From the IMG/VR virus record IMGVR_UViG_3300045988_121635: a stretch of DNA of 64,000 nt; one strand, 5' to 3'. Each line of letters opens with the position of its first letter. Positions within the stretch are counted from its first letter, which is position 1. Below, one piece after another: positions 1-50,022 of the stretch. The notes below the pieces were generated by a model, which saw nothing but the letters and a program-made list of their open reading frames with translations, searched no databases and was not told the origin of the DNA. Both the position numbers and the translations under genes were made by a program. The DNA comes from a virus.

Positions 1-30
1 TTATAATCCCCGTATTTTCGGACATACTTA

Positions 31-216
31 TTGTATTTTTTTTATTCTATGTGGTGGTTTTTATTAGTCGCTGACTTGTATTTTCTGTCTGTTGGTATTC
101 GTTCTATGTTGGAGTACGGACCGGATCAGTATAATATTGTAATGGTCTTTTGCTTTTCTTTATTGGCTTTGATTATAGGTTTAAATATCTATCTTGATAG
201 GAGAAGTAGACGGTAG
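31..216 (+). CDS. hypothetical small membrane protein (hydrophobic); window may begin inside its upstream region
   Basis: ORF track 61 aa, hydrophobic; no homology recognised. Confidence 0.25.
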   Translation: MYFFYSMWWFLLVADLYFLSVGIRSMLEYGPDQYNIVMVFCFSLLALIIGLNIYLDRRSRR

Positions 217-352
217 GGCGTGGGCTGAAGGCTCTCTATTCTCTCTATGGAATGATATTATCTCCAAACACCCCACACTTCATGCCAGAGTATAAGCTTG
301 TAGCGCTCTCCGTATGCCGGTAGTGAGGCGGTAGGGCGTGGGTTCTATGCGG
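211..352. repeat. GC-rich direct repeat motif CGGTAGGGCGTGGG x2 (211-224, 329-342) inside a ~400-bp non-coding GC-rich region
   Basis: read directly; GC-rich island in AT-rich genome. Confidence 0.7.
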
Positions 353-418
353 AAAGTCGGAGGATCAGCCGGGGTTGGAGAGGGGGAGGGCACTGTCTTC
401 CCGCAAAATTCAACAGAT

Positions 419-564
419 CAGCGTTTTAAAACAGCATTCTGTAGGTTCTTCAAACAAAATTAAGGATTGCAGTGCTTTAAAACAGCATAATGTAGGATTT
501 TCCAACAAAATTAAGACTTACAGCGTTTTTAAAACAGTATTCTGTAGGTAAGAGTTAAGGACTG
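419..564. repeat. three tandem copies of a 51-bp repeat (419-469, 470-520, 521-564 partial), core TTAAAACAGCAT(T/A)(C/A)TGTAGG
   Basis: aligned by eye; ~85% identity between copies; non-coding. Confidence 0.85.
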
Positions 565-620
565 CATTATGTGAATATTTTTTTTCAATCGGAATGTATA
601 ACAATTAAAACATAAACAAC

Positions 621-881
621 ATGAACGTATATGACTTTGCGCCTGACTTAGATTTGAGTAAGGAGGGAGAAGGTTTTATTTTTGGGGTGAAAGGAATAGA
701 AGACGGTGATGGTATAGTATATGCTAAGGTAGTTAGCTGTGTAGAAGTTAAGGATTACAGTTGTGAGGGGTGTATTTTTAATGATTGTTATAAGAATAAA
801 TGTTTATTATCGCGTAGTGTTAGTTGTGTAGATGGAGACTGGCTTTGTAGGTACGAACAGGCTGCCATAGAGGGGGAGTAG
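621..881 (+). CDS. hypothetical Cys-rich small protein; paralog of 2707..2955
   Basis: ORF 86 aa; shares F.P..DLS.KE.G..F ... C..CIF.N ... DW pattern with 2707..2955 product. Confidence 0.5.
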   Translation: MNVYDFAPDLDLSKEGEGFIFGVKGIEDGDGIVYAKVVSCVEVKDYSCEGCIFNDCYKNKCLLSRSVSCVDGDWLCRYEQAAIEGE

Positions 882-886
882 GCGGC

Positions 887-901
887 GCCTTGGGCTAAGG
901 C
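887..901 (+). terminator. GC-rich hairpin GCCTT-GGGCT-AAGGC downstream of 621..881, within AGGCGGCGCC motif shared with 8354-8363
   Basis: 5-bp stem seen directly; no U-tract. Confidence 0.3.
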
Positions 902-1356
902 CTGCGGTTGTAGGTGGAACGGAGGTCGGAGCAGAGCCAGGACAGTTTATTGTGGAACGTAAAAAGAAAAAAGATGGAAAGAACAATACATTATATTTGG
1001 ATAAATTGGGTATCTTCTACAGGTTCGAAAAGTAGTAGACTAATAAGCAACAGGTCTATGCCGGTATCAGATGCCAAAGAGATGATATTAAGAACGAGTG
1101 CTAAAGAATTGCTTAAACACAGACCGAGTTGGTTAAAGGACTGTGTTCGTATTAGTGTAAGCGCACAGGATATTACGACCGGAGAGATCCTGTATAGAAG
1201 AACTATAAACATAAAGAAGAAGGAGGAAATAATATGAAAAAGGCATTTAAGATATTTTCTATTATGTTTGTCATAGAAATAGTGCTGATAGCTATTTTAG
1301 ATGCTATGGCGTAAGTGAGAAAAATTTCTTCATTAATTTTCTTATGCTTTAGACAG

Positions 1357-1386
1357 AATGCTCCCGTCTGCGAAGATCGGAGCATT
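1357..1386 (+). terminator. long hairpin with GNRA tetraloop (AATGCTCC-CG-TCT-GCGA-AGA-TC-GGAGCATT); loop motif GTCTGCGAAGAT shared with 7003-7030
   Basis: 8-bp outer stem + inner TCT/AGA stem + GCGA loop read directly. Confidence 0.5.
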
Positions 1387-1393
1387 TGCTTTA

Positions 1394-1438
1394 TGGGATT
1401 CATGGTGCGGTAGGCTGGTTCGATTCCGGCGATCTCAC
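1394..1438 (+). tRNA. tRNA-like element: canonical T-arm (GCTGG-TTCGATT-CCGGC) plus 7-bp acceptor-like stem (TGGGATT/GATCTCA); full cloverleaf not recoverable by eye; no encoded CCA
   Basis: GGTTCGATTCC T-loop motif; pairing checked manually; only 45 nt so could be a tRNA fragment/mini-helix or a longer tRNA I could not fold. Confidence 0.3.
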
Positions 1439-1461
1439 ACAACATTAAAATAGGGAAGAAC

Positions 1462-1866
1462 ATGTTAAAAGAAGAATTTGAAGAACTGATTAAAAGGGAG
1501 GTAAACGAAAATCAGTATAAAAACATAGAAACGGCATACGAGGCTTTGCCGGAGTATATGGATAAGATGTATTTAGCAAGTGCTATTTCAAATGATATTG
1601 GGAAAGCTATTAATGTCTTATCGTTTTTAGGATCGTATATAAGCGAGTTAATGGGTTCGATAATAATCGAAAGGCAAAAGGTGGAATCATGTGCCTATGA
1701 TTTAATAAATAAATCGCATGAGGAGGATGACTTGAAAGCAAGAGAGATTGCCGTGCGATTAATAGGAGAGAGGGAAACAGTGGCATACACAGTAAAAGAA
1801 GGGCTGCCATTGTGGGAACAAGATAAAAAGTTTATAATAGAATTAATGAAGGAGGAAAGAAAATGA
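1462..1866 (+). CDS. hypothetical protein
   Basis: ORF 134 aa; ATGA overlap with next gene. Confidence 0.55.
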   Translation: MLKEEFEELIKREVNENQYKNIETAYEALPEYMDKMYLASAISNDIGKAINVLSFLGSYISELMGSIIIERQKVESCAYDLINKSHEEDDLKAREIAVRLIGERETVAYTVKEGLPLWEQDKKFIIELMKEERK

Positions 1867-2204
1867 AAGATGGTATTACATTACATCCAGAACACGGATT
1901 GAATCCGTCTATAGAAGTCTGCATGATATGTGGCGAAGAGATGGGGATTGCTTTATTAGGGAATAACATCAAAGGGCAGGCGCCGCATCATATATGCACG
2001 GGAGAAATATGTGACAATTGCAAAAAGATAATAGATGACGGAGGTTGTTTTATTATCGAAGTCGAGGATGGATCAGATCAAAAGAATCCGTATCGTACAG
2101 GGAGATATTGCGCGATAAAGAAAGAAGCAGCAAAGAAAATACTTGGACAGGAACATAGTGTTGTGTACATGGAAAAGTCTGCATACAGTCAAATAATACC
2201 ATAA
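1863..2204 (+). CDS. hypothetical Cys-rich (Zn-binding?) protein
   Basis: ORF 113 aa; CxxC...CxxC pairs; ATGA overlap. Confidence 0.5.
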   Translation: MKDGITLHPEHGLNPSIEVCMICGEEMGIALLGNNIKGQAPHHICTGEICDNCKKIIDDGGCFIIEVEDGSDQKNPYRTGRYCAIKKEAAKKILGQEHSVVYMEKSAYSQIIP

Positions 2205-2218
2205 AAATAAAGAAGGAT

Positions 2219-2533
2219 ATGTTTACAAAAGAAGAGCGATTATTCATATGGAAAAAGGTATATGAGATGATTGATAGGTTAGAGGATGGGGAATACATAT
2301 GTGTTGCGTTAAGAAATGTAGTGTTTATGTATCTCAAAACACATAAAAATATATATGAGTTTCGTTCAGACGAAATGGTGAGAATATATTTCCCGGAATT
2401 GGAGGAGAAGATAAGTATGGCCACAGAACCAGAGGAAACAAGAACGTTTTATGGGTGGTTTGGTTGTCTTAGTCCAGAAACGAAGGAGGTGAGGCTGAAT
2501 ATTGTGAAAGATATTATAAAAGAATTAGAATAG
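2219..2533 (+). CDS. hypothetical protein
   Basis: ORF 104 aa. Confidence 0.45.
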   Translation: MFTKEERLFIWKKVYEMIDRLEDGEYICVALRNVVFMYLKTHKNIYEFRSDEMVRIYFPELEEKISMATEPEETRTFYGWFGCLSPETKEVRLNIVKDIIKELE

Positions 2534-2579
2534 TATTTTTGTTAATCTATTTTATTCATCAAATTAAGTTTTGGGTTTT

Positions 2580-2609
2580 GGCATGTCGGTTCGTGAGGAT
2601 AGACATGCC
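2580..2609 (+). terminator. hairpin GGCATGTC-(GGTTC-GTGA-GGATA)-GACATGCC with GNRA (GTGA) loop
   Basis: 8-bp stem read directly; followed by U-rich TATTTCTGTAT. Confidence 0.45.
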
Positions 2610-2625
2610 TATTTCTGTATCATAG

Positions 2626-2686
2626 AGGGATGACGCGGCGTGCCGGTGCGTATGTGCCGGTCCTGGTTCGATTCTGGGCATCTCAC
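2626..2686 (+). tRNA. tRNA-like element: T-arm (CCTGG-TTCGATT-CTGGG) + acceptor-like stem (AGGGATG/CATCTCA); D-arm not evident
   Basis: same T-loop and ATCTCACA 3' motif as 1394-1438; 6/7 acceptor pairs; internal CCGG...CCGG stem with 10-nt loop (non-canonical). Confidence 0.3.
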
Positions 2687-2706
2687 AAACAATAAAACAT
2701 AATTAT

Positions 2707-2955
2707 ATGGAAGTAATAACATTCGGTCCGAACATGGATTTGTCTTCTAAAGAAGCAGGGGATGTATTTAGATTAAAATTGTATGGCATAGAGTATGATG
2801 TCAAAGTAGTTGGTGACGACGAAGATCCTCTTATGTTCTGCAAAGATTGTATATTTTTTAACAACTCCGAACGGTGTTCACTCTCAGAATCGCAAGACTG
2901 GTGCTTAAAAAAGCAAGTTGTTTACTGTAAAATAAGACATGATGGGGGAATTTAA
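2707..2955 (+). CDS. hypothetical Cys-rich small protein; paralog of 621..881
   Basis: ORF 82 aa; shared motifs with 621..881. Confidence 0.5.
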   Translation: MEVITFGPNMDLSSKEAGDVFRLKLYGIEYDVKVVGDDEDPLMFCKDCIFFNNSERCSLSESQDWCLKKQVVYCKIRHDGGI

Positions 2956-3130
2956 TGCGAAAGACGCCAATTTCTTATGGCGTCAAATTGGTAGGATTGA
3001 TGGGGTGATAGAAACTCTGAACCGTACCGAAGGAGAGATGCCGGAAATTATAGCCGGAGTACTAAAAAGAATAAGAGACGATATAGATAAGTTTGTAGAT
3101 AATAAAACGAAAGATTATGAGAATATATAA
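2939..3130 (+). CDS. hypothetical protein
   Basis: ORF 63 aa. Confidence 0.35.
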   Translation: MMGEFNAKDANFLWRQIGRIDGVIETLNRTEGEMPEIIAGVLKRIRDDIDKFVDNKTKDYENI

Positions 3131-3347
3131 AAATGATATTATAAAGGCGTCAGCGATAAGCACCGGCGCAGACAGAGGTGTGTTACTGTGTTCAATAACA
3201 GATTCGGGATTCACGTCTATAGCGGGCGTAATATCGGCTGTTAAGGATAAGTTACCAGGCAAAGATCATAAGAAGATGATTTTTGAAATACGGAATGATG
3301 GAAGAAACGAATATGGCAGATATAATAATTGTGGAGGAAAAATATGA
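3117..3347 (+). CDS. hypothetical protein
   Basis: ORF 76 aa. Confidence 0.35.
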   Translation: MRIYKNDIIKASAISTGADRGVLLCSITDSGFTSIAGVISAVKDKLPGKDHKKMIFEIRNDGRNEYGRYNNCGGKI

Positions 3348-3556
3348 AATACAGAGGTCTGTTGCTCCCTATGATATTAGCTGCAATGTGCGGAGATGAT
3401 GCCTTTGTGCTAAATACTAAAAGGGGAAAAGGAATGCAATCTACATATAGAAGAGAAAAGATTGTCAGAACAGAAAAAGAATTTGATATTAATGGCACTA
3501 AAGTAATGGCATACTCAAGAAAGGATGCCATTAAAAGATTAAAACATAAGAAGTAG
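3329..3556 (+). CDS. hypothetical protein
   Basis: ORF 75 aa. Confidence 0.35.
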   Translation: MWRKNMKYRGLLLPMILAAMCGDDAFVLNTKRGKGMQSTYRREKIVRTEKEFDINGTKVMAYSRKDAIKRLKHKK

Positions 3557-3603
3557 AAAACGGATTTTTATGTTAATGTTAGTTTTTTCATTTTTATTGA
3601 AAG

Positions 3604-3641
3604 GAGCGCCGGCCTGTGAAGGTATGCGCTCTTTGTATTTA
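3604..3641 (+). terminator. intrinsic terminator: GAGCGC-(CGGCC-TGTGA-AGGTAT)-GCGCTC hairpin with GNRA-like GTGA loop + TTTGTATTTAT
   Basis: 6-bp GC stem + U-rich tail read directly. Confidence 0.55.
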
Positions 3642-3651
3642 TATAATGCTT

Positions 3652-3770
3652 GACATACTCCCATCGCTAAAGCAAACGGGATTCTTGGATACAAACGTAC
3701 GGAACCCCCGGTTTTACAATCGTTGGAATCACCCGCACTTTCCAACTCGGAAATGCCCTTCCGAGGTCGC
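3652..3770 (-). mobile_element. orphan copy of IS200/IS605-family right end / TnpB-omegaRNA scaffold (no tnpB); ~85-90% identical to 12182-12300 and retains a decayed TnpB C-terminal coding remnant (RKGISELES...)
   Basis: TTGACATACTCCCATCGCTAAAGCAAA(C/T)GGGATTCTTGGATACAAACG... aligned by eye with the 3' end of the tnpB element at 12182; translation of minus strand gives RKGISELESAGDSND vs TnpB RKGISELESKSNSSDSN. Confidence 0.75.
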
Positions 3771-3856
3771 AAGACAGGGCAAATATAATGTTTAATTATC
3801 ATCTGACACATAAATGGGATCAGTATTACCATTAAATAACATAAAACAATAATAAT

Positions 3857-4111
3857 ATGACAGATAATAACATAGACGTGAATATCGTACCTGTAAAGAA
3901 TGGCGCGAAACGTGTTGTGGTATCATATTACCATTATTCACGCAAGGACAAAAATCACATGAGTTCCCAAACGGATTACGTGTGGGAAACAAAGAATGAA
4001 GAAATGTTTAAATACTTTGAGGCCAGGAGGACAAAAGTATTTTATAGTCAGATTCGTGCCATGTGTAGATTCTATGGCAAGAAAAATGTACGTAAATACA
4101 AAAAGCTATGA
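3857..4111 (+). CDS. hypothetical protein
   Basis: ORF 84 aa; ATGA overlap with next. Confidence 0.45.
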   Translation: MTDNNIDVNIVPVKNGAKRVVVSYYHYSRKDKNHMSSQTDYVWETKNEEMFKYFEARRTKVFYSQIRAMCRFYGKKNVRKYKKL

Positions 4112-8178: not shown

Positions 8179-8353
8179 AAAAGATTATGAGAAGTATCTT
8201 AACTCAATATCTCCAGATAGAGACGATGAGAGATGGATCATTGGAGGAAAGAACAGGTATTGCGGTAGAGAGAATTATGGCACTATGATCAAAAGGTATG
8301 ATCCTATTGGTTTTAATGTAGGATACAGGGAGTGGGTAGAACAGCCAGAGTAA
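8165..8353 (+). CDS. hypothetical protein
   Basis: ORF 62 aa. Confidence 0.35.
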   Translation: MGKSRKDYEKYLNSISPDRDDERWIIGGKNRYCGRENYGTMIKRYDPIGFNVGYREWVEQPE

Positions 8354-8375
8354 GGCGGCGCCTGCCCTGCCATGA

Positions 8376-8404
8376 GGTCGGCCTGGCTGTCTGTGGCCAG
8401 GACC
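8376..8404 (+). terminator. GC-rich hairpin GGT-(CGG)-CCTGGC-TGTCTGTG-GCCAGG-ACC after 8165..8353; preceded by AGGCGGCGCC motif also at 883-892
   Basis: palindrome read directly; no U-tract. Confidence 0.4.
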
Positions 8405-8446
8405 GTACATTAGTCAGATAGTGAACGACGAAAACAATACAAATGT

Positions 8447-11762: not shown

Positions 11763-12202
11763 GAAATACATTCAGTTATCATTTTTTAATAACATATCTT
11801 ATGAAAACACAAGAAGAATATGCCCATGAAATTGACGAAATCGTTCGCCGGGATGTAGAGAGCTGCCAGAGTGACTGGTTTATAATCGACAAGGAGATAT
11901 TTATGCAGCCAGAGAATAAGAACAAGGCATTTATTTTGGGAACAAGAAAGACCGGGTGCGATATGATCGTACTTGGAGGTACTAATTGCAGTGGATCCAA
12001 TATGGATTGGCTTTTCGGTTGCCTTGGCAATGAAAACTTCTATGTATGCCAGCCAGTATCTTTCTATAAATCACAACAAGAAATCCAGAAAGTAAATCCG
12101 CTTTATGCTTTCAAGGTGGCCACTGCTTATTTTAGAGAACAAGGGAAGGTTCCGGTATTTGAAGATAATAACTGTAGATTATTGACATACTCCCATCGCT
12201 AA
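11744..12202 (+). CDS. hypothetical protein whose last 7 codons (LLTYSHR*) are supplied by the IS right end, so its 3' end is altered by the tnpB insertion
   Basis: stop codon TAA lies inside TTGACATACTCCCATCGCTAA IS terminus. Confidence 0.45.
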   Translation: MLEFLLRNTFSYHFLITYLMKTQEEYAHEIDEIVRRDVESCQSDWFIIDKEIFMQPENKNKAFILGTRKTGCDMIVLGGTNCSGSNMDWLFGCLGNENFYVCQPVSFYKSQQEIQKVNPLYAFKVATAYFREQGKVPVFEDNNCRLLTYSHR

Positions 12203-12380
12203 AGCAAATGGGATTCTTGGATACAAACGCAAGAAACCCCGATGTTGCTATCGCTGGAATTACTCTTGCTCTCCAATTCGGAAATGCCCTTCCGAAGTAT
12301 ATTACGGGCTGCAAGAATATCACGGTCGTTAATTGCGCCGCACGCTGGGCACACCCACGTGCGGTCGCGTAACGACAGTC
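12182..12380 (-). ncRNA. predicted omegaRNA (reRNA) scaffold overlapping tnpB 3' end and IS right end; guide would continue into flank below 12182 (minus strand reads ...GGGAGUAUGUCAA|UAAUCUACAGUU...)
   Basis: established TnpB architecture; terminal hairpin TCCCAT-C-GC-TAAA-GC-AA-ATGGGA at 12190-12212 seen; extent inferred. Confidence 0.5.
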
Positions 12381-13374
12381 CTTTATTAATGCAGCCACAT
12401 TCACAAGTTTTGGAAGAAGGATACCATTTGTCAATCTTGTGTATCGTTACTCCATATTTTGAAGCAACATACGTAAGTTTATCAATAAAAGAAGAATGAC
12501 TGAGATCGGAAACTTTCTTTCCCCACAAACGTTTCATTCCTTCAATGCTTAGATCTTCAATGAAAATATAATCATATTGTTTGCATAACTGATGAGCTAA
12601 TTTCCATTGAAAATCTGATCGAAGATCGTTTATTTTACGATACGTTTGTTGAAGTTCAAACAGTTTCCTTCTTCTATTATTGGATCCTTTCTTTGCATTA
12701 GAAAGCCGTTTGTTTAGTTTTCTAATCTTGTTTTGATATTGTTTGAAGAATAGAGGAGAATCAATTTTGCTACCATCGCTTTTAGTTAAATAAGTTTTTA
12801 GTCCAAAATCCAATCCTATAGATGCACCATCATGTGTCTTTCTATAAGAGCTTATAGGATTATGATCTGTAACTACAATCAAACTAAAACGTGAACAGGT
12901 TTCTCTAACTATTCTAATTTGTTTAACATTACCTTCGTAGCCTCTACTGTATGAGAATCTAAATCGTTTGTTTCCTTTGTTAATTGTTAGACAATTCCCA
13001 TTTAGGGTAAACCCACCTTGTTTGAAAACAAAAGAGTTGAATTTCTCCGGTGATTTAAACTTAGGAGGTCGTTTAGCTAACTTCTTAAAGAAACGATTAT
13101 AAGATTCATCAAGACGTTCAAGTATTTCTTGTGTTGTTTGAGAATGAAGAAGATTTCTTTTAATTCTTTTGGCAAAATACTTCTTCATTTTGCCAACTGA
13201 GATATATTTCCCAAACAGTTTGTGATACCTACGTTGTAGAGCTAACGCATGATTCCATACAAAACAACATTCACGAAGCATCTTGTCAAGATACTTCGTT
13301 TTCCTGGAATGGTATATGTTGTATTTGTATGAAATCATTTTTTTTATCTGTAATTTTGATTCAAAATTAATCAA
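12199..13374 (-). CDS. tnpB: TnpB (OrfB) RNA-guided endonuclease of IS200/IS605 family: RuvC-like motifs (IGLDFG, IFIEDLS, NDRDILAARNI) and CxxC...CPACG zinc finger
   Basis: 391-aa ORF; motif order D...E...Zn-finger...D typical of TnpB/Cas12 ancestors. Confidence 0.9.
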   Translation of the reverse strand: MINFESKLQIKKMISYKYNIYHSRKTKYLDKMLRECCFVWNHALALQRRYHKLFGKYISVGKMKKYFAKRIKRNLLHSQTTQEILERLDESYNRFFKKLAKRPPKFKSPEKFNSFVFKQGGFTLNGNCLTINKGNKRFRFSYSRGYEGNVKQIRIVRETCSRFSLIVVTDHNPISSYRKTHDGASIGLDFGLKTYLTKSDGSKIDSPLFFKQYQNKIRKLNKRLSNAKKGSNNRRRKLFELQQTYRKINDLRSDFQWKLAHQLCKQYDYIFIEDLSIEGMKRLWGKKVSDLSHSSFIDKLTYVASKYGVTIHKIDKWYPSSKTCECGCINKGLSLRDRTWVCPACGAINDRDILAARNILRKGISELESKSNSSDSNIGVSCVCIQESHLL

Positions 13375-43575: not shown

Positions 43576-46500
43576 CTATTTGTAGCTTGTATCCTCATCA
43601 CCTTCCGAATCAGGAGTGGCGCCGATGAAGAACATCATTGACTTGTTGTTCGTCTGCTGCCACCAATTATAAGCGCGCGCTACGTCTTCCGGCGTCTTGA
43701 TATTATACCATTGTTTGATAAACGTCTGTTTGGCGAGTTGCCTAAATAACTTAAACTCTCCTTTGTATGTGCCGGATGTTACTTTATCAAGTGAATAATT
43801 CCTAAGATCGGTAAGATCCTTCAGTTTCCGCCCCATAACAAACGGATCGTTAATGATATCTACCACGTTAAGCTCCATAATAAACGGCATCTGTGAAGCT
43901 ATTTCGTTTATGGTTCTGAATCCGACATAGGATCCGAATTGAGTAAGCCAACTTTCTTCGTTTTCATCATCATCACGCCATCCGGCAAGAAGCATAGATA
44001 CGGCCTGCATGATAAGGAACGTGCCGGCATAGACACTGAGACGTTTGAGATTGGTTTTTTCTACCTCATTCATATTGTCTTTATTTTCATTCCAGGCATC
44101 TATGATGTTTTTCATACCAGACTCGGAAGCCAGGCTAAATGTTTTGGCTATCATATTCTTTAACGTAATTGACAACCCTTCCTCTTCTTGCATTGTCTGG
44201 AAATTGAAGCCACGTCTTTTCCACAGACGTTGAGCCGCCAGCACCAACCATCCTCGGTGGGCGGTCATGAACCTGGCTATCCAGTTGCGCGATGCAGCAG
44301 TTCGGTTTTCTTCATTCAAAGATCCGTTACATATCTGCGACAAGCTACGGACTTGATTCCTGGTTATAGCCATCTGGGTTTCAACTTCCTCAACAGTAAC
44401 ACCTGATCCGGGCTTTACAACCACCTTCCCATCCACGACGTCTACCATACTCCATAAAGTACGATCTTTTAATGCGTTCCATTCTCTTTTTATGGTACTC
44501 TGTTCTTTATTGCGTTCTTTTTCCATCTTGAAATCTTGGAGCGTGTAGAACCGGCCTTTGTAATAACGAACATTGTCCATAGTAGCAATCATAACCTGCG
44601 GATCAAGAGGGTAGTTCAGGATTTCCATAAAAGCATACATAGGCGAACGCATTAAGGTCCTGGCCGCTCTATTGTATCCGGCACCATACATACGATTTCG
44701 GATATTGAATATCCCCATTCTCTCACCTATGACATATAATTTACTTTTCCTATCTATGTCTCCGGTTTCTGCTATACAAGATGGAGCAAGGCGTGAAAAT
44801 TCAGCCGATGCGTATTTAAGGGAGTCTTTGCTTATATACTGTCCTACGGCAGATTCCATGATGAGGTTGATATGACCTGTTAAGGCGCCGGTAGCTGCCA
44901 CAAACGGAGACAGTGCCAAGTTCATGACCGACATAAATCTTTCAACAGCCATCATAATTCTTGTAAGGTCTACCGTATATCCTCCGATGTTCACCGTAAG
45001 TCTTTTGGTGTTCATCCTAATGCCATAATAATGATCGTTGAAGAAGTCTCTGAACATCTGATATGCTTGGGTTGCTTCAGCCTTCTTACCGCCTTCAAAT
45101 TGCTTGTTCAGTAACATCTGTTCCAGTCCTTGAGCGAGCTCTATAGACTTCTGCTTTTCGTTGTATAACGATGACTGCATCATAAGCATCGAATAAGAGT
45201 AGCCAAAATCGTGAGATACATCATCTTGGTTCTCCAACTCATATATGTAGTATTTAGGTATAGACCTAAGTCTGTCTTCCGGGTCATACACTTCTCCTTG
45301 CCTGGTCTTACCATATAGAGAATCGTCTACTCTGTCCAGGCACAGATCTGATACAAAATTACGAACCGTATTTTTGAAGTTAATACCCAATCCTTCTATA
45401 CGTTCTATGTCTTGTTTTGATATCTGTGGAATAGCATACAGGTTCGGGCTCTGCTCTTTGTATAGATCAAGGGATTGTCTTTTTATTTCCTTGAGTTTTT
45501 GAATCATATTCCACTGCTCTACATTTTTAGTAGCAACCTCATTACCGTCAACATCATACTTGATGCCAAAGTCATTGAAATACGATTCATCACGATACAG
45601 GCTTTTCTTAGGCATTCGATGACCATACCCATGATCTTTTACATAATCAGGATTACGGCCGCTATTTTCGGCTTCAGATTCAGCCACCCATGCCCTTGCA
45701 GGATCGAAAGAAAGGTACGATATATCCATGCCATAATCTTGGGTGGATGTACCGTTTTGTACGTCCTTAACCATCTGCGCCACATCTATCTCACCTCGAC
45801 CGATTTTGTCGATCATAGCCGCATATCCAGTAGGCGCCATGCGTTTATAGTACGAAAAGACCTGGCTCCTGGCAAATTCATTAACAATAGCATTGGCCTC
45901 TTCTATGCCCGCTTTTATGTCAGCTTCTATACCCTCTTCTCTTGTATTATTTAAAAACAAGCTGGCCATCTTAGCATTAACAGCATTCCTAAAATCTCTA
46001 CCGTCTAATTCTTTGCTTATACCAAGCTTTTCTGACAGGTAGTTGGTTTCAGATACGGTAAACAGATATCGGTTATCAGCAGCCTTAAACAGCTTATCCC
46101 TTAAAGCCTGAATCCTTTTTGCTTTCTTCGCCGTAGTATGACGTTGTACGAACTTCCATTCCACTTCCTTGGAGTCAGCAAGAGCATTTAAATAAGACTG
46201 ATTTACTTCGTTTTCAGCCTTATTGCTTTTAGTAAGGTACTTATCAATATCTTCAAGACCCACCATCTTAGCATAATCTATCAAAATAGCGTAATCGGCT
46301 TCAATAGCTTCAGATGCGGCCCTAAAAGCATCTCTTTCGGATGAGGTAAATGTTGCTTCGTTAATTTCTCCGATATCAGCCACATCGCGATTGTTTCCGA
46401 TTATTTCCTTGATAATAGCCTTATTTTTTTCTATATCTTTCACAATAGAATCCACGTCAGTCGCATCTCTATCGCTTGTCGTAGAACTAATGATATCATG

Positions 46501-49500
46501 CGCCATTTTGAGATACGAAGCCTTGTTATTTGATTCGGTGCGCGCTGACTGTTCCGATTCTATATCATTCCAAAACCGATCGTTGAATGACAGGTGACCA
46601 CCCAACATAAGCGTTCTCAATGCAGCTTCCCCTCCTGATTCGCTCTGAATCGCTCTCAATTTTTGCAAAAACGATTCTGATACGGCATTAGTAACATTAT
46701 TTGATTCCTTTCTCCAAACTTCATTTATAGCTTGTATTTCTTTGGCCATCTTAAGTTGGTCGCCGGTTTTTTCCACTCTCCTGGTTCCTACATATATGTA
46801 TTCTGAAGCTGCTTCTTTACGTTGTTTACGAAGCAGTCCTTCTTCTTCGTAATTGCTGCTTTTAAAATAGGCAACTTCATCAAAATTACCACCGCTATCA
46901 ATAAAAGGCTGCCTCAGTATCCGTTTTTGCCTGGATAGAGCATTAAGGTATTCTTTGGTTGTTTGAGAAACTGGATGCCCTAATTCTTCTTCAGCCTTTT
47001 TGTATATGGATTCCATTCTTGTGGCATAACTTTCACTAAATTCCAGTTCCGAATTTTCAGCATCCCACTTTTCCATCTGTTCCGTATAGATCTTTTCCTG
47101 CTCGATGGTAAAAATATCGGTATTAACCCTATCAGACGATGGTTTGAATTTAGCGTTTTCAGTAACCGTATTTCCATCCTTGTCAACTACTTCTCTTTTA
47201 AATACGTAATTACGGTTATTGTCAACCACATCACCAATTTCTTCTTCTGATATCTCTATGTTCATGGCAGTCGCAAACGCTCGCATCTGCGCCAGCTTCT
47301 TATTACGATCGTATTTAGCCATATCAAGAGCACTACGAAGGTAATTAGAAGTTTTGCCGTCTACTTTCTGAAGCAGTTTTTCAAATTCAGATTTGTTAAA
47401 ACCATGCTTTTTCGCATATGCCAGGAAATCGGATATGGCGGGCTGGGCATTCACCATCGCATTGTAATTGTCTTTGGCAATCATAGCTCCAAGAGCGTTA
47501 TTGAACGGACTGGAAGAATGCTCTAATATACCAAACCACCTACTTATCCAAGAAACATCGTGTTGAACCTTGTCGAAAAATTCTTTTACTCTCTTTACCT
47601 TATCTGCCGGCACATGAAGTTCGTTCATTAACTTATCAAGCAACGTACTTTCATCAAGGTCTTGTACTGATTTAATATCAGACTGAATACCATTGATGTC
47701 GGCAATGACGGTGTTGATCCTATTTGTATAATCCTGCTTTTCACGTTCATCAAATTCGGTACTTCTGTTACGGATATATCCTCGAAGATCGTTCATGATC
47801 GGAAGAACCTGATTGTTGATAATATCTACGTTCTTTCGATCATTGGTGTTGAAGTGAAGCTTGCCGTCTTTGGTATCACCATGAAGGATGGTGTTCACCA
47901 CATTGCTTAAGTATCTGACCTGAGCTTCGGCTGTGGAGATCATGCTGTTCATGGCAGCCGCCATCTCATTCTTGTCTATTTCGGTCTCTACCTTATTTAT
48001 CTTATCTTCTATGGTCTTAAGCTGCGCAAGGGTCATAGACGTAGTTACAGCCCTATCAGAGCTTATCTGACGTAAGTCTCTTAATGTTTTTCTTAGTGAT
48101 CTGATCTTAGACTCAAGAAACTTGTTCTTGTTCATAGAAGAAAGGGAGTATAATGTAAAGTCATTATCCTTTAACAGAGAGGTGTCAAATCCTTTATCTA
48201 TGTCAGTAATGGCAAGATCACGAATGTTTTTAATAACGTTATTCAAATCTTGTCTTTGGGTTGATAAAGCTGATTTAAGCCAGCTTACGATTCCAGAGAA
48301 AAGCTGCCGGACGCGCCCCAGGAAGGAGGTGGGCTCTACCGGCGCCTGTGCTGTGCCGGCCTGCATCTCCCTGGCGAGGATCTTTCCAAGAATTTCTCTC
48401 CTAACAGCATTATCAAGCTCAGCTCCTTCATACGCTTTACCGTATGTATTATAATACTGACCTGCATACTGGTTCCACTCTTCCGTACCTTCTACATCTT
48501 GCAGAACAGCCTCAACAGCATTCTGATCTCTGTATGCCTCTACAAGAAAGTGGGCTGTTTCTTCTACTAAATCAGATAAAGTAGCATCTTCACCAACTGC
48601 TATTACGTTATTAGCAATATCCGCCAATGCCTTAGCAGAAGGTTCGTGCCCGTATTTGGTTTGGTACTTCTCTATATAGTCGGTCATACCTATGACACTA
48701 ACGCCAAGCGTTTTCAGTATCTCGACAATAGAATTTCGTTGGTCACGTTCCTGCCTGCTATAATCTGATACGATCTTAGCTTTAGTATCAGCATAAAGAT
48801 CGTTATCTTCTAATATGAATGAAACTACAAGCGCATCAAAATGATCGTACTTGGCGTCCAATTCATTGTATCTTCCTGACTTAAGATCGTTCTTTATCTG
48901 TTCCCTACTAATCCTTTCCGTTCCTCCGGTGGCGAGTCTCATAGTTACCTTACTGTTATCCAACGAGCTTATGGTTATCATACCTTGGTCGTTCATGGAA
49001 ACATCGGAACCAAAATGATTACGGAGCTCGGTGTATGATAAGGCTGAATTGAAAAGTCTAATTTGTCCTGTATGACCTTCTCCTGTAAGATAATAGCTTC
49101 TTGTTTCAGGATCGAATATCTTAGATCCGGACAAAAGACCTTTCTTTATAAGGTAGTTAATTATACCACCTTTTGTTGATAAAGAAGTAGAAGCAGAAGC
49201 GGTCATGACCGGTATAAAAGATTTGGGATTATTAAGAACATACTTTCCAGCTTTGTAAGTAATGTCTGCCACGCCATCCACGGTAGATTCTTGAACGGTG
49301 CCTGATAAGAACCCTATTCTGATATCATTCCCGCCAGAGCGAAGAGCTTCTCCGTAATCTTCAAATAATTGACTACGATCGTTCATGAAAAACAAACGAG
49401 GCTCTCCAGTCTGATACGTTACACCCACAGGATTAGAATCTGTTTCTGGTAGCTCTTCTGGGCTAAATATCTTAAGACCGTCTTTTATAACCATATAATT

Positions 49501-50022
49501 AACACCCTTATCCTGTACCACAGATACGGGAGTGAAGTCCGAAAATATAGCATCTTGTAAATACTGCCCGGCGTCTATTCCTGGTTCTTCCGGTACGGAA
49601 ATACTTGATGGGATCATAGCATCCACCAACATAATATTATCACCCAGATCTTGGCTATAGAATCCGAAGCCTGATTCTTGAATCCCATAAGTTGCATCTG
49701 ATTTTGATACAAGAACAGGATTACTCATCTTAGAAGCCTTATCCAGCACCCTTTCTCTATAGGCTTCTGGGATAAGATCGATGTTGGATTTTACCTTATT
49801 ATAAGCCTGTTTGTTGATAGGCACTCTCTTTCTCCAGTCGCCAAAAGCCTTTAAGAACTTGTTGGAAAATACGGTTTTAAAAACAGTAGTAGCCCGCTCC
49901 CTGTTCTCCATAAGAGGAACAGATGCTATTTTATCAAACAACATAGACCTGTCCCCTGATCTGGTAGAGACAGAAACAACTTTCTTTTTATTATCTCTTT
50001 TAATAATACACGTTGATACCAT
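43576..50022 (-). CDS. giant 2148-aa protein of unknown function, largely alpha-helical/coiled-coil with hydrophobic segments near C-terminus; candidate virion/ejection-associated protein
   Basis: single uninterrupted 6.4-kb ORF; no enzymatic motif recognised by eye. Confidence 0.7.
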   Translation of the reverse strand: MVSTCIIKRDNKKKVVSVSTRSGDRSMLFDKIASVPLMENRERATTVFKTVFSNKFLKAFGDWRKRVPINKQAYNKVKSNIDLIPEAYRERVLDKASKMSNPVLVSKSDATYGIQESGFGFYSQDLGDNIMLVDAMIPSSISVPEEPGIDAGQYLQDAIFSDFTPVSVVQDKGVNYMVIKDGLKIFSPEELPETDSNPVGVTYQTGEPRLFFMNDRSQLFEDYGEALRSGGNDIRIGFLSGTVQESTVDGVADITYKAGKYVLNNPKSFIPVMTASASTSLSTKGGIINYLIKKGLLSGSKIFDPETRSYYLTGEGHTGQIRLFNSALSYTELRNHFGSDVSMNDQGMITISSLDNSKVTMRLATGGTERISREQIKNDLKSGRYNELDAKYDHFDALVVSFILEDNDLYADTKAKIVSDYSRQERDQRNSIVEILKTLGVSVIGMTDYIEKYQTKYGHEPSAKALADIANNVIAVGEDATLSDLVEETAHFLVEAYRDQNAVEAVLQDVEGTEEWNQYAGQYYNTYGKAYEGAELDNAVRREILGKILAREMQAGTAQAPVEPTSFLGRVRQLFSGIVSWLKSALSTQRQDLNNVIKNIRDLAITDIDKGFDTSLLKDNDFTLYSLSSMNKNKFLESKIRSLRKTLRDLRQISSDRAVTTSMTLAQLKTIEDKINKVETEIDKNEMAAAMNSMISTAEAQVRYLSNVVNTILHGDTKDGKLHFNTNDRKNVDIINNQVLPIMNDLRGYIRNRSTEFDEREKQDYTNRINTVIADINGIQSDIKSVQDLDESTLLDKLMNELHVPADKVKRVKEFFDKVQHDVSWISRWFGILEHSSSPFNNALGAMIAKDNYNAMVNAQPAISDFLAYAKKHGFNKSEFEKLLQKVDGKTSNYLRSALDMAKYDRNKKLAQMRAFATAMNIEISEEEIGDVVDNNRNYVFKREVVDKDGNTVTENAKFKPSSDRVNTDIFTIEQEKIYTEQMEKWDAENSELEFSESYATRMESIYKKAEEELGHPVSQTTKEYLNALSRQKRILRQPFIDSGGNFDEVAYFKSSNYEEEGLLRKQRKEAASEYIYVGTRRVEKTGDQLKMAKEIQAINEVWRKESNNVTNAVSESFLQKLRAIQSESGGEAALRTLMLGGHLSFNDRFWNDIESEQSARTESNNKASYLKMAHDIISSTTSDRDATDVDSIVKDIEKNKAIIKEIIGNNRDVADIGEINEATFTSSERDAFRAASEAIEADYAILIDYAKMVGLEDIDKYLTKSNKAENEVNQSYLNALADSKEVEWKFVQRHTTAKKAKRIQALRDKLFKAADNRYLFTVSETNYLSEKLGISKELDGRDFRNAVNAKMASLFLNNTREEGIEADIKAGIEEANAIVNEFARSQVFSYYKRMAPTGYAAMIDKIGRGEIDVAQMVKDVQNGTSTQDYGMDISYLSFDPARAWVAESEAENSGRNPDYVKDHGYGHRMPKKSLYRDESYFNDFGIKYDVDGNEVATKNVEQWNMIQKLKEIKRQSLDLYKEQSPNLYAIPQISKQDIERIEGLGINFKNTVRNFVSDLCLDRVDDSLYGKTRQGEVYDPEDRLRSIPKYYIYELENQDDVSHDFGYSYSMLMMQSSLYNEKQKSIELAQGLEQMLLNKQFEGGKKAEATQAYQMFRDFFNDHYYGIRMNTKRLTVNIGGYTVDLTRIMMAVERFMSVMNLALSPFVAATGALTGHINLIMESAVGQYISKDSLKYASAEFSRLAPSCIAETGDIDRKSKLYVIGERMGIFNIRNRMYGAGYNRAARTLMRSPMYAFMEILNYPLDPQVMIATMDNVRYYKGRFYTLQDFKMEKERNKEQSTIKREWNALKDRTLWSMVDVVDGKVVVKPGSGVTVEEVETQMAITRNQVRSLSQICNGSLNEENRTAASRNWIARFMTAHRGWLVLAAQRLWKRRGFNFQTMQEEEGLSITLKNMIAKTFSLASESGMKNIIDAWNENKDNMNEVEKTNLKRLSVYAGTFLIMQAVSMLLAGWRDDDENEESWLTQFGSYVGFRTINEIASQMPFIMELNVVDIINDPFVMGRKLKDLTDLRNYSLDKVTSGTYKGEFKLFRQLAKQTFIKQWYNIKTPEDVARAYNWWQQTNNKSMMFFIGATPDSEGDEDTSYK

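What the first reader, a model, noticed from the sequence alone, without database searches (positions are those of the whole stretch)
200..620. Non-coding region with 3 tandem 51-bp iteron-like repeats and repeated GC-rich motifs: candidate origin or genome terminus
Positions 419-564 hold three head-to-tail 51-bp repeats (core TTAAAACAGCAT..TGTAGG). They are preceded at 200-420 by a GC-rich island containing CGGTAGGGCGTGGG twice and a G-rich stretch (GGGGTTGGAGAGGGGGAGGG). This is the only extended non-coding, repeat-rich block in the early arm, and it sits upstream of the first gene. Iteron arrays next to GC/AT skews are typical of phage replication origins or packaging (pac/cos) regions.
Basis: seen in the sequence. 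Interest (0 to 1): 0.5.

Follow-up and report, generated by a model that had tools for sequence, protein, structure and literature searches.

The report
Copy-number-variable repeat array in phage leader
The three 51-bp repeats are real and sit in a conserved non-coding stretch of a common human-gut (epsilon crAss-like) phage, but their number varies from 2 to about 9 between near-identical strains. They are not the genome end, and nothing here shows they are a replication origin.

Summary
Three ~51-bp tandem units lie at 396-549(-566), the 14-mer CGGTAGGGCGTGGG occurs twice (211, 329), and a G-rich tract lies at 371-390. All of it is non-coding and matches no Rfam family.

The window is an epsilon crAss-like phage, 95.7% identical to crAssE-Sib. 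In 79 related genomes that span the site, the array is always present but hypervariable. There are 54 distinct alleles, and the hairpin-to-ATG distance runs from 124 to 545 nt. The array is built from short conserved motifs found nowhere else in the genome.

About 27 of 39 truncated metagenomic contigs stop inside the array. Contigs also stop at a second tandem repeat 2.4 kb upstream, so these are assembly breaks, not termini. The published PhageTerm start of crAssE-Sib lies 0.66 kb upstream of the array. Whole-genome GC skew turns only at the two gene-strand switches, not here. The gene arm also runs 17 kb further upstream, so "first gene" is a window-edge artefact. No initiator, DnaA boxes, partition genes or CRISPR-like counterpart were found.

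Best reading: a phased array of protein-binding DNA sites in an end-proximal control region. Origin-type use is possible but unproven. A neutral minisatellite is the main rival. Interest is modest.

The parts
1..7 (+). -10 box (TATAAT) of a sigma-70-like promoter, TTGATT-17-TATAAT. The -35 box lies just outside the window.
   Evidence: Best promoter-like site in the scan of L006 3513-3541, 10 of 12 matches. Aligned to the window start. Conserved in L084 and L086, and CTGATT in L085 and L287. Consensus match only.
31..216 (+). Small ORF (61 aa, hydrophobic). Its TAG stop (214-216) lies inside the first CGGTAGGGCGTGGG.
   Evidence: Annotated as a hypothetical protein in crAssE-Sib. No Pfam or PHROG match.
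197..403 (+). Conserved GC-rich non-coding block. Its length is held at 217-220 nt in most relatives.
   Evidence: Stops in all frames. 95.6% mean identity over 212-311 in 40 loci. Most of the 69 distinct variants are 217-220 nt long (outliers run from 211 to 274), including alleles with a replaced centre. Fold z-score 0.01. RNAalifold covariation term only -1.15.
211..224 (+). First CGGTAGGGCGTGGG, recognisable in nearly all relatives examined.
329..342 (+). Second CGGTAGGGCGTGGG, present only in a subset of relatives.
   Evidence: Replaced by CCGAGAGCGCAGG in most.
371..403 (+). G-rich tract plus hairpin (GGGGAG / GGCACTGT / CTTCCC). It expands by (GGGAGA)n in relatives. The 3' half of the hairpin is the start of the repeat unit.
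   Evidence: Helix at columns 222-226/231-235 is kept in 18 of 18 sequences. A canonical G4 motif is present in only 33 of 69 variants and is absent in the window.
396..446 (+). Repeat unit 1.
447..497 (+). Repeat unit 2.
499..566 (+). Repeat unit 3, with a diverged tail (GTAAGAGTTAAGGACTGCA).
567..620 (+). AT-rich leader of the downstream gene (T8 run, AACAATTAAAACATAAACAAC).
   Evidence: Conserved in relatives.
621..881 (+). Downstream 86-aa protein with a conserved N-terminus, a hypervariable Cys-rich centre and a conserved C-terminus. It is context for the finding, not shown to be functionally linked.
   Evidence: 509 clusters at 90% identity; the 120 listed are 74-94% identical to the query. 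Alignment. No family match. AF2 mean pLDDT 60.7, an all-beta model with residues 44-71 unmodelled.

Best explanation
The array is a lineage-specific minisatellite at the DNA level whose units are protein-binding modules. Each ~51-bp unit carries three conserved motifs: AACAAAATT(C/A)A, the 10-bp palindrome G(T/C)TTTAAAAC, and CAG(C/T)AT..TGTAGG. Units repeat every 50-52 bp, about five helical turns. Their A-tracts alternate at about 20 and 31 bp, so sites lie on one face of an intrinsically bent DNA.

The proposed mechanism is this. A dimeric phage or host DNA-binding protein occupies at least two units cooperatively. This builds a nucleoprotein complex in the roughly 0.9-kb non-coding region that begins at the PhageTerm-predicted genome end. 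That region contains a terminator, a promoter-like site, a small ORF, a length-conserved GC block, a G-rich hairpin, the array and an AT-rich leader. The leading sub-reading (about 0.25-0.3) is an iteron-like, transcription-activated replication or maintenance element. An operator or enhancer array for the downstream early-type cassette genes is nearly as likely (about 0.2). Copy number drifts by slipped-strand mispairing or unequal recombination, often in two-unit steps.

Shown: the repeats, the motif conservation, the phasing, uniqueness in the genome, the copy-number variation, the position relative to the published genome start, and the non-coding nature. Inferred: protein binding, bending, cooperativity and the biological process served.
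For: The repeats are real and unique in 64 kb. Their motifs are essentially absent elsewhere in the 151-kb Sib genome, and multi-copy occurrences are confined to this phage group in IMG/VR. All 79 spanning loci keep the element, and all have at least 2 copies of the AACAAAATTNA block. There are 54 distinct alleles and no genome has collapsed to one or zero units. The motif blocks are conserved while the 10 nt between them vary (the core block is partly ascertained by the search pattern). The motifs persist in diverged alleles L287, L085, L068 and L288. Spacings of 50, 51 and 52 nt rule out coding. The unit hairpin shows no compensatory changes: the closing pair is paired in 61% of 150 units, with 48 G-A mismatches. 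This argues for sequence-level recognition rather than RNA structure. A-tracts sit at 405, 424, 456, 476-479, 507 and 526, alternating about 2 and 3 helical turns. The flanking non-coding DNA is as conserved as, or more conserved than, neighbouring genes at 90-96%.
Against: No binding protein is identified, and neighbouring proteins have no DNA-binding or Rep domains. The adjacent 86-aa protein gives a low-confidence all-beta model. There are no DnaA boxes nearby, no skew inflection and no promoter consensus inside the units. Copy number varies freely from about 2 to 9, as a neutral minisatellite would. Concerted evolution of tandem units can mimic motif conservation. A more AT-rich, origin-like non-coding block exists 2.4 kb upstream.
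Confidence: 0.45

Rival explanations
1. Neutral minisatellite. The repeats have no function of their own. They arose by slippage next to a G-rich hairpin in a tolerant non-coding spacer, and they expand and contract without consequence. Their apparent motif conservation reflects recent duplication and homogenisation.
For: There are 54 alleles in 79 genomes and sizes of 124-545 nt. Sub-repeats of 21, 69-71 and 81 nt and two-unit duplications occur. The G-tract itself expands. A second, unrelated tandem repeat lies in the next non-coding block. The array's aligned identity is only 73-79%.
Against: No spanning genome has lost the array or collapsed to a single unit. Conserved blocks alternate with variable positions across 91-150 distinct units. 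The motifs are retained in alleles whose flanks and downstream gene have diverged.
Confidence: 0.25
2. RNA-level element. The region is transcribed from the upstream promoter-like site. The GC block plus the repeats would then act in the transcript, for example as a highly expressed early non-coding RNA, a processing or stability element, or a decoy for an RNA-binding factor.
For: The block lies between two same-strand ORFs, downstream of a promoter-like site. The GC block has conserved length and a conserved terminal hairpin. Neighbouring intergenic GC-rich elements are real structured tRNA-like RNAs with compensatory changes. In crAss-like phage phi14:2, long early intergenic RNAs are very abundant (bioRxiv 10.1101/2020.03.07.982082). 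The phage encodes a Ro60-like protein, a CCA-adding/poly(A) polymerase-like enzyme and a polynucleotide kinase.
Against: There is no Rfam match. Fold z-scores are 0.01 for the GC block and -1.35 for the array. Covariation is weak. The unit hairpin is not maintained. No significant similarity to the tRNA-like elements was found.
Confidence: 0.12
3. Packaging signal or physical terminus. The array would be the site where terminase binds or cuts (pac/cos), or it would lie at a terminal-repeat boundary.
For: The PhageTerm-derived start of crAssE-Sib is only 0.66 kb away. Many contigs end in the array. Tandem repeats occur near phage ends in T7-like phages (general knowledge).
Against: The mapped start is not at the array. 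A different repeat pair, ATTGGTCTAAAACGAAACT x2, sits 24 and 97 nt from that start and is the better candidate. Contig ends equally pile up at the other tandem repeat, and one contig starts and ends inside the array, meaning a circular assembly broke at the repeat. The terminase genes are about 21 kb away.
Confidence: 0.08
4. Mimic of a host CRISPR repeat (RNA anti-CRISPR-like mini-array), or a coding repeat.
For: The unit can be read as a ~36-nt GTTTTA...CAAAAT element plus a ~15-nt spacer, which superficially resembles a type II repeat (sequence inspection). 51 is a multiple of 3.
Against: The 'spacers' are themselves repeated. Spacings of 50 and 52 nt, and stops in all frames, exclude coding.
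Confidence: 0.02

Closest known systems
Iteron arrays of theta-type origins (lambda ori, P1 oriR/incA, pSC101, R6K, F)
   Same: Several direct repeats of a protein-binding-type motif, in helical phase, in non-coding DNA beside an A/T-rich stretch. The number of repeats can differ between relatives.
   Different: Units are 51 bp rather than 17-22 bp. No adjacent or recognisable Rep/initiator gene, no DnaA boxes and no skew signal. Copy number varies from about 2 to 9 among near-identical genomes. Replication function is untested.
Tandem-repeat centromere and maintenance elements (F sopC 12 x 43 bp; EBV oriP family of repeats 30 bp x ~20)
   Same: Long units (30-50 bp), each carrying a short palindrome, arranged head to tail. 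Copy number is variable and partly dispensable. This would be relevant if the phage persists as a plasmid, as the crAssE-Sib authors speculate (PMC11054128).
   Different: No ParA/ParB/SopB-like genes were found among the proteins scanned. A plasmid state has not been shown for this phage.
Rearranging non-coding control regions of small DNA viruses (SV40 21-bp GC repeats plus 72-bp enhancer repeats; BK/JC NCCR)
   Same: GC-rich repeated motifs next to longer tandem repeats, upstream of early genes. Strain-to-strain duplication and deletion of blocks.
   Different: Eukaryotic viruses with no homology. This is an analogy of architecture only.
T7 left-end region (terminal-repeat short repeats; tandem early promoters A1-A3 at about 0.5-0.75 kb from the end, followed by the anti-restriction gene 0.3)
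   Same: Three tandem elements 0.66-0.81 kb from the predicted genome end, followed by a small, fast-evolving early-type gene.
   Different: No sigma-70 or Bacteroidetes promoter consensus in the units. The temporal class of the genes is unknown.
Abundant early intergenic non-coding RNAs of crAss-like phage phi14:2
   Same: Long non-coding intervals between small early genes in a related phage order, transcribed in the gene direction.
   Different: No sequence similarity was tested or is known, their function is unknown, and transcription of this region has not been measured.

Membership tests
Iteron-type replication origin | Three or more direct repeats of a binding site in helical register | tested here: met
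   Three units at 51/52-nt spacing. 50-52 nt accounts for 110 of 117 spacings in relatives. A-tract phasing.
Iteron-type replication origin | Cognate initiator (Rep/O-like) gene adjacent to or containing the repeats | tested here: not met
   Pfam and PHROGs on the flanking ORFs gave no Rep, HTH or winged-helix hits. The nearest annotated 'DNA replication factor' is about 23 kb away. Many neighbours are unknown, so absence is not proven.
Iteron-type replication origin | Adjacent DNA-unwinding element and/or DnaA boxes | tested here: not met
   The nearest DnaA-like 9-mer (1 mismatch) is at 996. The array is 28-32% GC, only slightly below the genome. A 400-nt block at 21-25% GC lies 2.4 kb upstream instead.
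Iteron-type replication origin | Strand-compositional (GC-skew) switch at the site | tested here: not met
   The Sib cumulative skew has its minimum at about 17 kb and maximum at about 110 kb, and the array at about 150.5 kb sits on a monotonic slope. Skew follows gene orientation here, so this is weak evidence.
Iteron-type replication origin | Supports initiation of replication | not testable with these tools
   Needs marker-frequency analysis, 2D gels or plasmid assays.
Phage packaging site / physical genome end | Physical DNA ends map to the element | tested here: not met
   The published PhageTerm start of crAssE-Sib maps 241 nt before window position 1, which is 0.66 kb from the array. 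Raw reads could not be re-analysed here.
Phage packaging site / physical genome end | Contig ends cluster there for reasons other than repeats | tested here: not met
   About 27 of 39 truncated loci begin inside repeat units. A similar pile-up occurs at the other tandem repeat. L086 has an N-gap in the array.
CRISPR array / RNA anti-CRISPR repeat mimic | Repeat matches a host CRISPR repeat; spacers are unique | tested here: not met
   The genome-contig scan gave only single matches per stretch (listing capped at 120 stretches). The inter-repeat segments are themselves repeated.
Tandem-repeat partition centromere (sopC/parC-like) | Linked ParA/ParB-type genes | tested here: not met
   No ParA/ParB domains in the mid-size proteins scanned. 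Only part of the proteome was scanned.
Known structured RNA family | Match to an Rfam covariance model or significant fold/covariation | tested here: not met
   No Rfam hits at gathering or E<=10 in 200-620. z-scores 0.01 and -1.35. Covariation term -1.15.
Protein-coding tandem repeat | Open frame through the units, with unit length a multiple of 3 in all copies | tested here: not met
   Stops in all frames. Spacings of 50, 51 and 52 nt are mixed within single arrays.

The most novel reading that the evidence does not exclude
The promoter, conserved GC block, polymorphic G-run, phased A/T-rich repeats and AT-rich leader together form a transcription-primed (R-loop, ColE1- or mitochondrial-CSBII-like) origin or plasmid-maintenance element. 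It would belong to a crAss-like phage lineage that encodes no DNA polymerase of its own, with the 51-bp units serving as iterons for a still-unrecognised initiator. That would give the first mapped cis-acting replication element for epsilon crAss-like phages, and a handle on their proposed plasmid-like persistence.
Probability: 0.15. Interest if true: 0.6.

Novelty: new member of a known kind. Interest (0 to 1): 0.3.

Why it matters
Epsilon crAss-like phages are abundant in the human gut and uncultured, and their origin, genome ends and early regulation are unknown. This array is a unique, genus-wide cis-element in a highly conserved non-coding region next to the predicted genome start, so it is a concrete place to look for a replication or control site.

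It also has practical consequences. The array and a second tandem repeat 2.4 kb upstream systematically break short-read assemblies of these phages. They can fake terminal overlaps: one contig starts and ends inside the array. With 54 alleles in 79 genomes, the array would also serve as a high-resolution strain marker. None of this is surprising in kind, because tandem repeats in phage non-coding regions are common.

Tried and rejected
- **Known RNAs.** Rfam (gathering and E<=10) and ARAGORN found nothing in 1-4000.
- **RNA structure.** Single-sequence folds are not better than shuffles. RNAalifold on 18 diverse GC-block variants gave only weak covariation. The unit hairpin ACAG/CUGU is not maintained.
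- **Coding.** Rejected by stops in all frames and mixed 50/51/52 spacing.
- **Promoters in the units.** No sigma-70-like site. On the gene strand there is no Bacteroidetes TTTG/TAnnTTTG pair. TAATTTTG occurs on the opposite strand in some units but without a -33 element.
- **G-quadruplex.** A canonical motif is present in only 33 of 69 variants and absent from the window and from Sib at this site.
- **CRISPR-repeat mimic.** No arrays found in 185,579 species genomes among the stretches listed. Repeated hits in one Bacteroidaceae MAG are an unrelated multicopy element.
- **IHF and DnaA sites.** The IHF-like match (by eye) falls in the variable part of the unit. No DnaA boxes nearby.
- **DGR involvement in the variable neighbour gene.** No TR/VR similarity.
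- **The 86-aa neighbour as the binding protein.** No family match. The AF2 model has mean pLDDT 60.7, too poor for a fold search.
- **Virion RNA polymerase.** The 2148-aa virion protein in the window has no DxDxD motif, so the idea of an N4-like virion-polymerase promoter array could not be anchored.
- **Homology of the GC block to the tRNA-like elements.** Not supported by BLAST.
- **More distant relatives.** Epsilonduovirus-level relatives could not be reached with the capped searches. All loci obtained appear to belong to the same roughly 150-kb phage group.

Full report
**What the window is**

The first 3 kb match one GenBank phage, crAssE-Sib (OR575929, 151,256 bp, human gut), at 95.7% identity. 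That phage is an epsilon crAss-like phage described in PMC11054128.

Window genes include a DnaB-like helicase, an SNF2-type helicase, a PD-(D/E)XK nuclease, a C5 methylase, a flotillin-like protein and a 2148-aa virion protein. Genes run on the + strand to about 42 kb and then on the - strand, and GC skew follows them.

**Check of the observation**

- TRF reports a period-51 array at 404-549 and 419-548.
- Ungapped repeat search gives units at 396-446, 447-497 and 499-549.
- The 21-nt core occurs three times and nowhere else in the window, where 0.01 is expected by chance.
- CGGTAGGGCGTGGG is exact at 211 and 329.
- The G-rich tract is at 371-390.
- GC reaches 0.49-0.65 across about 212-411.

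So the description is accurate. The context claims are not. A 61-aa ORF (31-216) precedes the block, and its TAG stop lies inside the first 14-mer. In crAssE-Sib and other complete relatives the same-strand arm continues about 17 kb further upstream, through genes for a phosphodiesterase, a polynucleotide kinase, tRNAs, dUTPase, SSB, a sliding clamp, RuvC and thymidylate synthase. "First gene" is therefore an effect of where the window starts.

**Not coding and not a known RNA**

- All six frames across 1-660 are broken by stops outside the small ORF.
- In relatives, units are spaced 50, 51 or 52 nt within single arrays.
- Rfam and ARAGORN find nothing.
- Folding energies match shuffled controls, with z = 0.01 for 195-405 and -1.35 for 396-620.

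**Comparative picture**

Using the neighbouring 134-aa protein and the upstream polynucleotide kinase as anchors, I collected more than 160 related loci from IMG/VR, ENA and Logan.

The array is at the same place in every locus that spans the site, but it is hypervariable.
- The core motif is present in 1-9 copies, most often 2.
- Some genomes add up to about 7 copies of a 21-nt sub-repeat, ACTCCCTACCAACAAAATTCA.
- Others have 69-71-nt or 81-nt units, or expand in two-unit steps.
- Among 79 spanning loci there are 54 distinct alleles.
- The distance from the G-rich hairpin to the ATG of the next gene ranges from 124 to 545 nt.
- Every allele keeps at least 2 copies of the AACAAAATTNA block.

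The element persists in lineages where the 134-aa neighbour is only 69% identical (L287, five units). It survives in degenerate form in a diverged allele, L068/L288. Multi-copy matches to the two-block motif in IMG/VR are confined to this phage group.

**Anatomy of the unit**

Across 91-150 distinct units, two conserved blocks are separated by about 10 variable positions. The blocks are AACAAAATT(C/A)A and G(T/C)TTTAAAACAG(C/T)AT..TGTAG(G). The second block is partly ascertained by my search pattern, and the first is not.
- The second block contains the 10-bp palindrome GTTTTAAAAC.
- The potential hairpin ACAG/CUGU is not preserved by compensatory change. This argues against an RNA stem and for recognition of the sequence itself.
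- A-tracts at 405, 424, 456, 476-479, 507 and 526 alternate at about 20 and 31 nt. They are therefore in phase with the helix, which implies a bend (inference).
- The motifs do not occur elsewhere in the 151-kb Sib genome beyond single chance 10-mers.

**The GC block**

Positions 212-311 are the most conserved 100 nt in the neighbourhood, at 95.6% mean identity over 40 loci. The polynucleotide kinase gene is 74-90% and the array 73-79%.

The length of the block is 217-220 nt in most of the 69 distinct variants, with outliers from 211 to 274. This holds even in alleles whose centre is replaced by unalignable sequence.

The first 14-mer is recognisable in nearly all relatives examined. The second exists only in a subset, and most relatives carry CCGAGAGCGCAGG instead. 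The "twice" is therefore not a conserved feature.

The terminal hairpin (GGGAG/CUCCC type) is kept in all 18 sequences tested. Overall covariation support for an RNA fold is weak. A canonical G-quadruplex motif is present in only 33 of 69 variants and is absent from the window itself.

**Terminus question**

The crAssE-Sib authors set the genome start with PhageTerm, p = 1.5e-22. Aligning the record end to the window puts that point 241 nt before window position 1. This is about 0.44 kb before the GC block and about 0.66 kb before the array.

In L006, the order of features around that point is as follows:
1. the intrinsic-terminator-like hairpin of the upstream gene;
2. the mapped start;
3. 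two copies of ATTGGTCTAAAACGAAACT, 73 nt apart;
4. a promoter-like TTGATT-17-TATAAT whose -10 box is window 1-7;
5. the small ORF, the GC block, the array and the leader.

The array is therefore near the end but is not the end.

The striking pile-up of contig ends has a simple cause. About 27 of 39 truncated loci begin inside repeat units. It is explained by the repeats, for four reasons:
- a similar number of contigs stop at an unrelated 27-30-nt tandem repeat 2.4 kb upstream;
- one scaffold has an N-gap inside the array;
- contig 129625 both starts and ends in the array;
- the Sib record itself has no terminal repeat.

**Origin question**

- The cumulative GC skew of the whole Sib genome has its minimum at about 17 kb and maximum at about 110 kb. 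These are exactly the divergent and convergent gene-strand switches. The array, at about 150.5 kb, lies on a straight slope.
- There are no DnaA-box-like 9-mers within about 400 nt.
- The flanking small proteins have no recognisable domains.
- The non-coding block 2.4 kb upstream has a G-rich tandem repeat, two AAACGCGTTT palindromes and about 400 nt at 21-25% GC. On paper it is at least as origin-like.

None of this excludes an iteron role. Skew here tracks transcription, and most proteins are unknown. There is simply no positive evidence.

For context, epsilon crAss-like phages encode no DNA polymerase and only a minimal replication set (PMC7886860). For the prototypic crAssphage, origins were predicted at the start of the forward-strand arm (PMC10983915).

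**Other ideas tested**

- A CRISPR-repeat mimic is not supported.
- Promoter consensus in the units is not supported.
- DGR targeting of the neighbouring variable gene is not supported.
- The adjacent 86-aa protein has a conserved N-terminus, a hypervariable Cys-rich centre with indels and a conserved C-terminus. It falls into 509 clusters at 90% identity. Its AF2 model is poor and all-beta, which gives no hint of a DNA-binding fold.

**Synthesis**

What is shown is a unique, genus-wide, non-coding cis-element. It is made of short conserved motifs in helical phase. It is always present in at least two copies, varies freely above that, and is embedded in an unusually conserved end-proximal non-coding region.

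The most economical mechanism is an array of binding sites for a sequence-specific, probably dimeric, DNA-binding protein on bent DNA. Copy number would change by slippage or unequal recombination (confidence about 0.45). Within that reading I lean slightly to a replication or maintenance element activated by transcription from the upstream promoter (about 0.25-0.3) over an operator/enhancer array for the downstream cassette genes (about 0.2).

The rivals are a functionless minisatellite (about 0.25), an RNA-level role (about 0.12) and packaging (about 0.08).

**Comparison and novelty**

The array works most like plasmid and phage iterons, or like sopC- or oriP-FR-type tandem binding arrays. 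In layout it resembles the rearranging control regions of small DNA viruses.

It fails the testable membership criteria for an iteron origin: adjacent initiator, DnaA boxes or unwinding element, and skew. It should not be filed as one. The crAssE-Sib paper does not mention these repeats.

It is a new example of a familiar kind of feature. Its interest is modest unless experiments show it to be the origin.

Noticed in passing
window 1340-1445 and 2575-2690; also L006 2865-2986 (upstream of the window): Three paralogous GC-rich intergenic elements, each ending in a tRNA-like T-arm (GGTTCGATTCC) and an acceptor-like stem just before the next ORF. ARAGORN and Rfam do not call them. Across relatives the hairpin and T-stem show several compensatory changes (for example AAUGC/GCAUU to AGUGC/GCACU, AACGC/GCGUU and AAUAC/GUAUU; GCUGG/CCGGC to GUCAG/CUGGC). 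They therefore look like real structured tRNA-like RNAs punctuating the operon. The phage also encodes a Ro60-like protein, a CCA-adding/poly(A) polymerase-like enzyme, a polynucleotide kinase and an NrnA-like phosphodiesterase.
   Followed up: partly
L083 7601-7705 (crAssE-Sib 72,601-72,705; outside the window): Sub-threshold Rfam YrlA (bacterial Y RNA) match, 28.5 bits and E = 0.037. It lies directly upstream of tRNA-Tyr, tRNA-Lys and the Ro60-like gene, which makes it a plausible phage Y RNA.
   Followed up: partly
window 621-881 and 2707-2955: The 86-aa protein after the array is a diversity hot spot. It has 509 clusters at 90% identity, and variation and indels are concentrated in a Cys-rich centre. 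Some variants are frameshifted at a G5-6 run into the downstream GC-rich element. A 36%-identical paralogue at 2707-2955 lies in a stretch (about 2712-3100) that only about 28% of relatives cover.
   Followed up: partly
window 878-950 and 8315-8424: Two GC-rich elements directly after stop codons share GGCGGCGCC...GCCAGGAC in different reading frames. This suggests a nucleotide-level element rather than coding sequence.
   Followed up: no
L006 1243-1910 (about 2.4 kb upstream of window position 1): A second ~670-nt non-coding block. It holds a terminator, a G-rich stretch, a 27-30-nt tandem repeat (AAAGATGTTTATGTGATGAGAGAGATATG), two AAACGCGTTT palindromes in a C-rich segment, and about 400 nt at 21-25% GC. 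It breaks many assemblies and is at least as origin-like as the flagged region.
   Followed up: partly
L001 24-43 and 97-116; L006 3296-3460 (just upstream of window position 1): Two copies of ATTGGTCTAAAACGAAACT lie 73 nt apart, right next to the PhageTerm-derived genome start of crAssE-Sib. They are followed by a hairpin plus T-run (AGGCGG...CCGCCTTTTT). This could be a terminase-recognition site or a small transcription unit, and it is conserved in diverged relatives.
   Followed up: no
window about 1012-1211, 1512-1811 and 2712-3100: Segments covered by only about 20%, 55% and 28% of 40 related loci. The first about 5 kb of the window is a mosaic of small gene cassettes of unknown function.
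   Followed up: no
window 12199-13374 (- strand): A TnpB/IS605 OrfB-type gene on the opposite strand inside the + strand arm, coinciding with the local dip in GC skew at 12-14 kb. No TnpB is annotated in the syntenic part of crAssE-Sib, which carries its TnpB copies at other positions.
   Followed up: no
L191, L199, L210, L228, L230, L231, L234, L239, L240 (Bacteroidaceae MAG STF2_127): At least nine short contigs of one low-coverage MAG carry a ~200-nt multicopy element that happens to contain the 20-mer TTTAAAACAGCATTTTATAG. The flanks are unrelated to the phage array, so this is judged a chance match amplified by copy number.
   Followed up: partly
window 43576-50022 (- strand): The 2148-aa protein matches a PHROG 'virion structural protein' but has no DxDxD motif, so it is not evidently the catalytic virion RNA polymerase reported for this phage group.
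   Followed up: no
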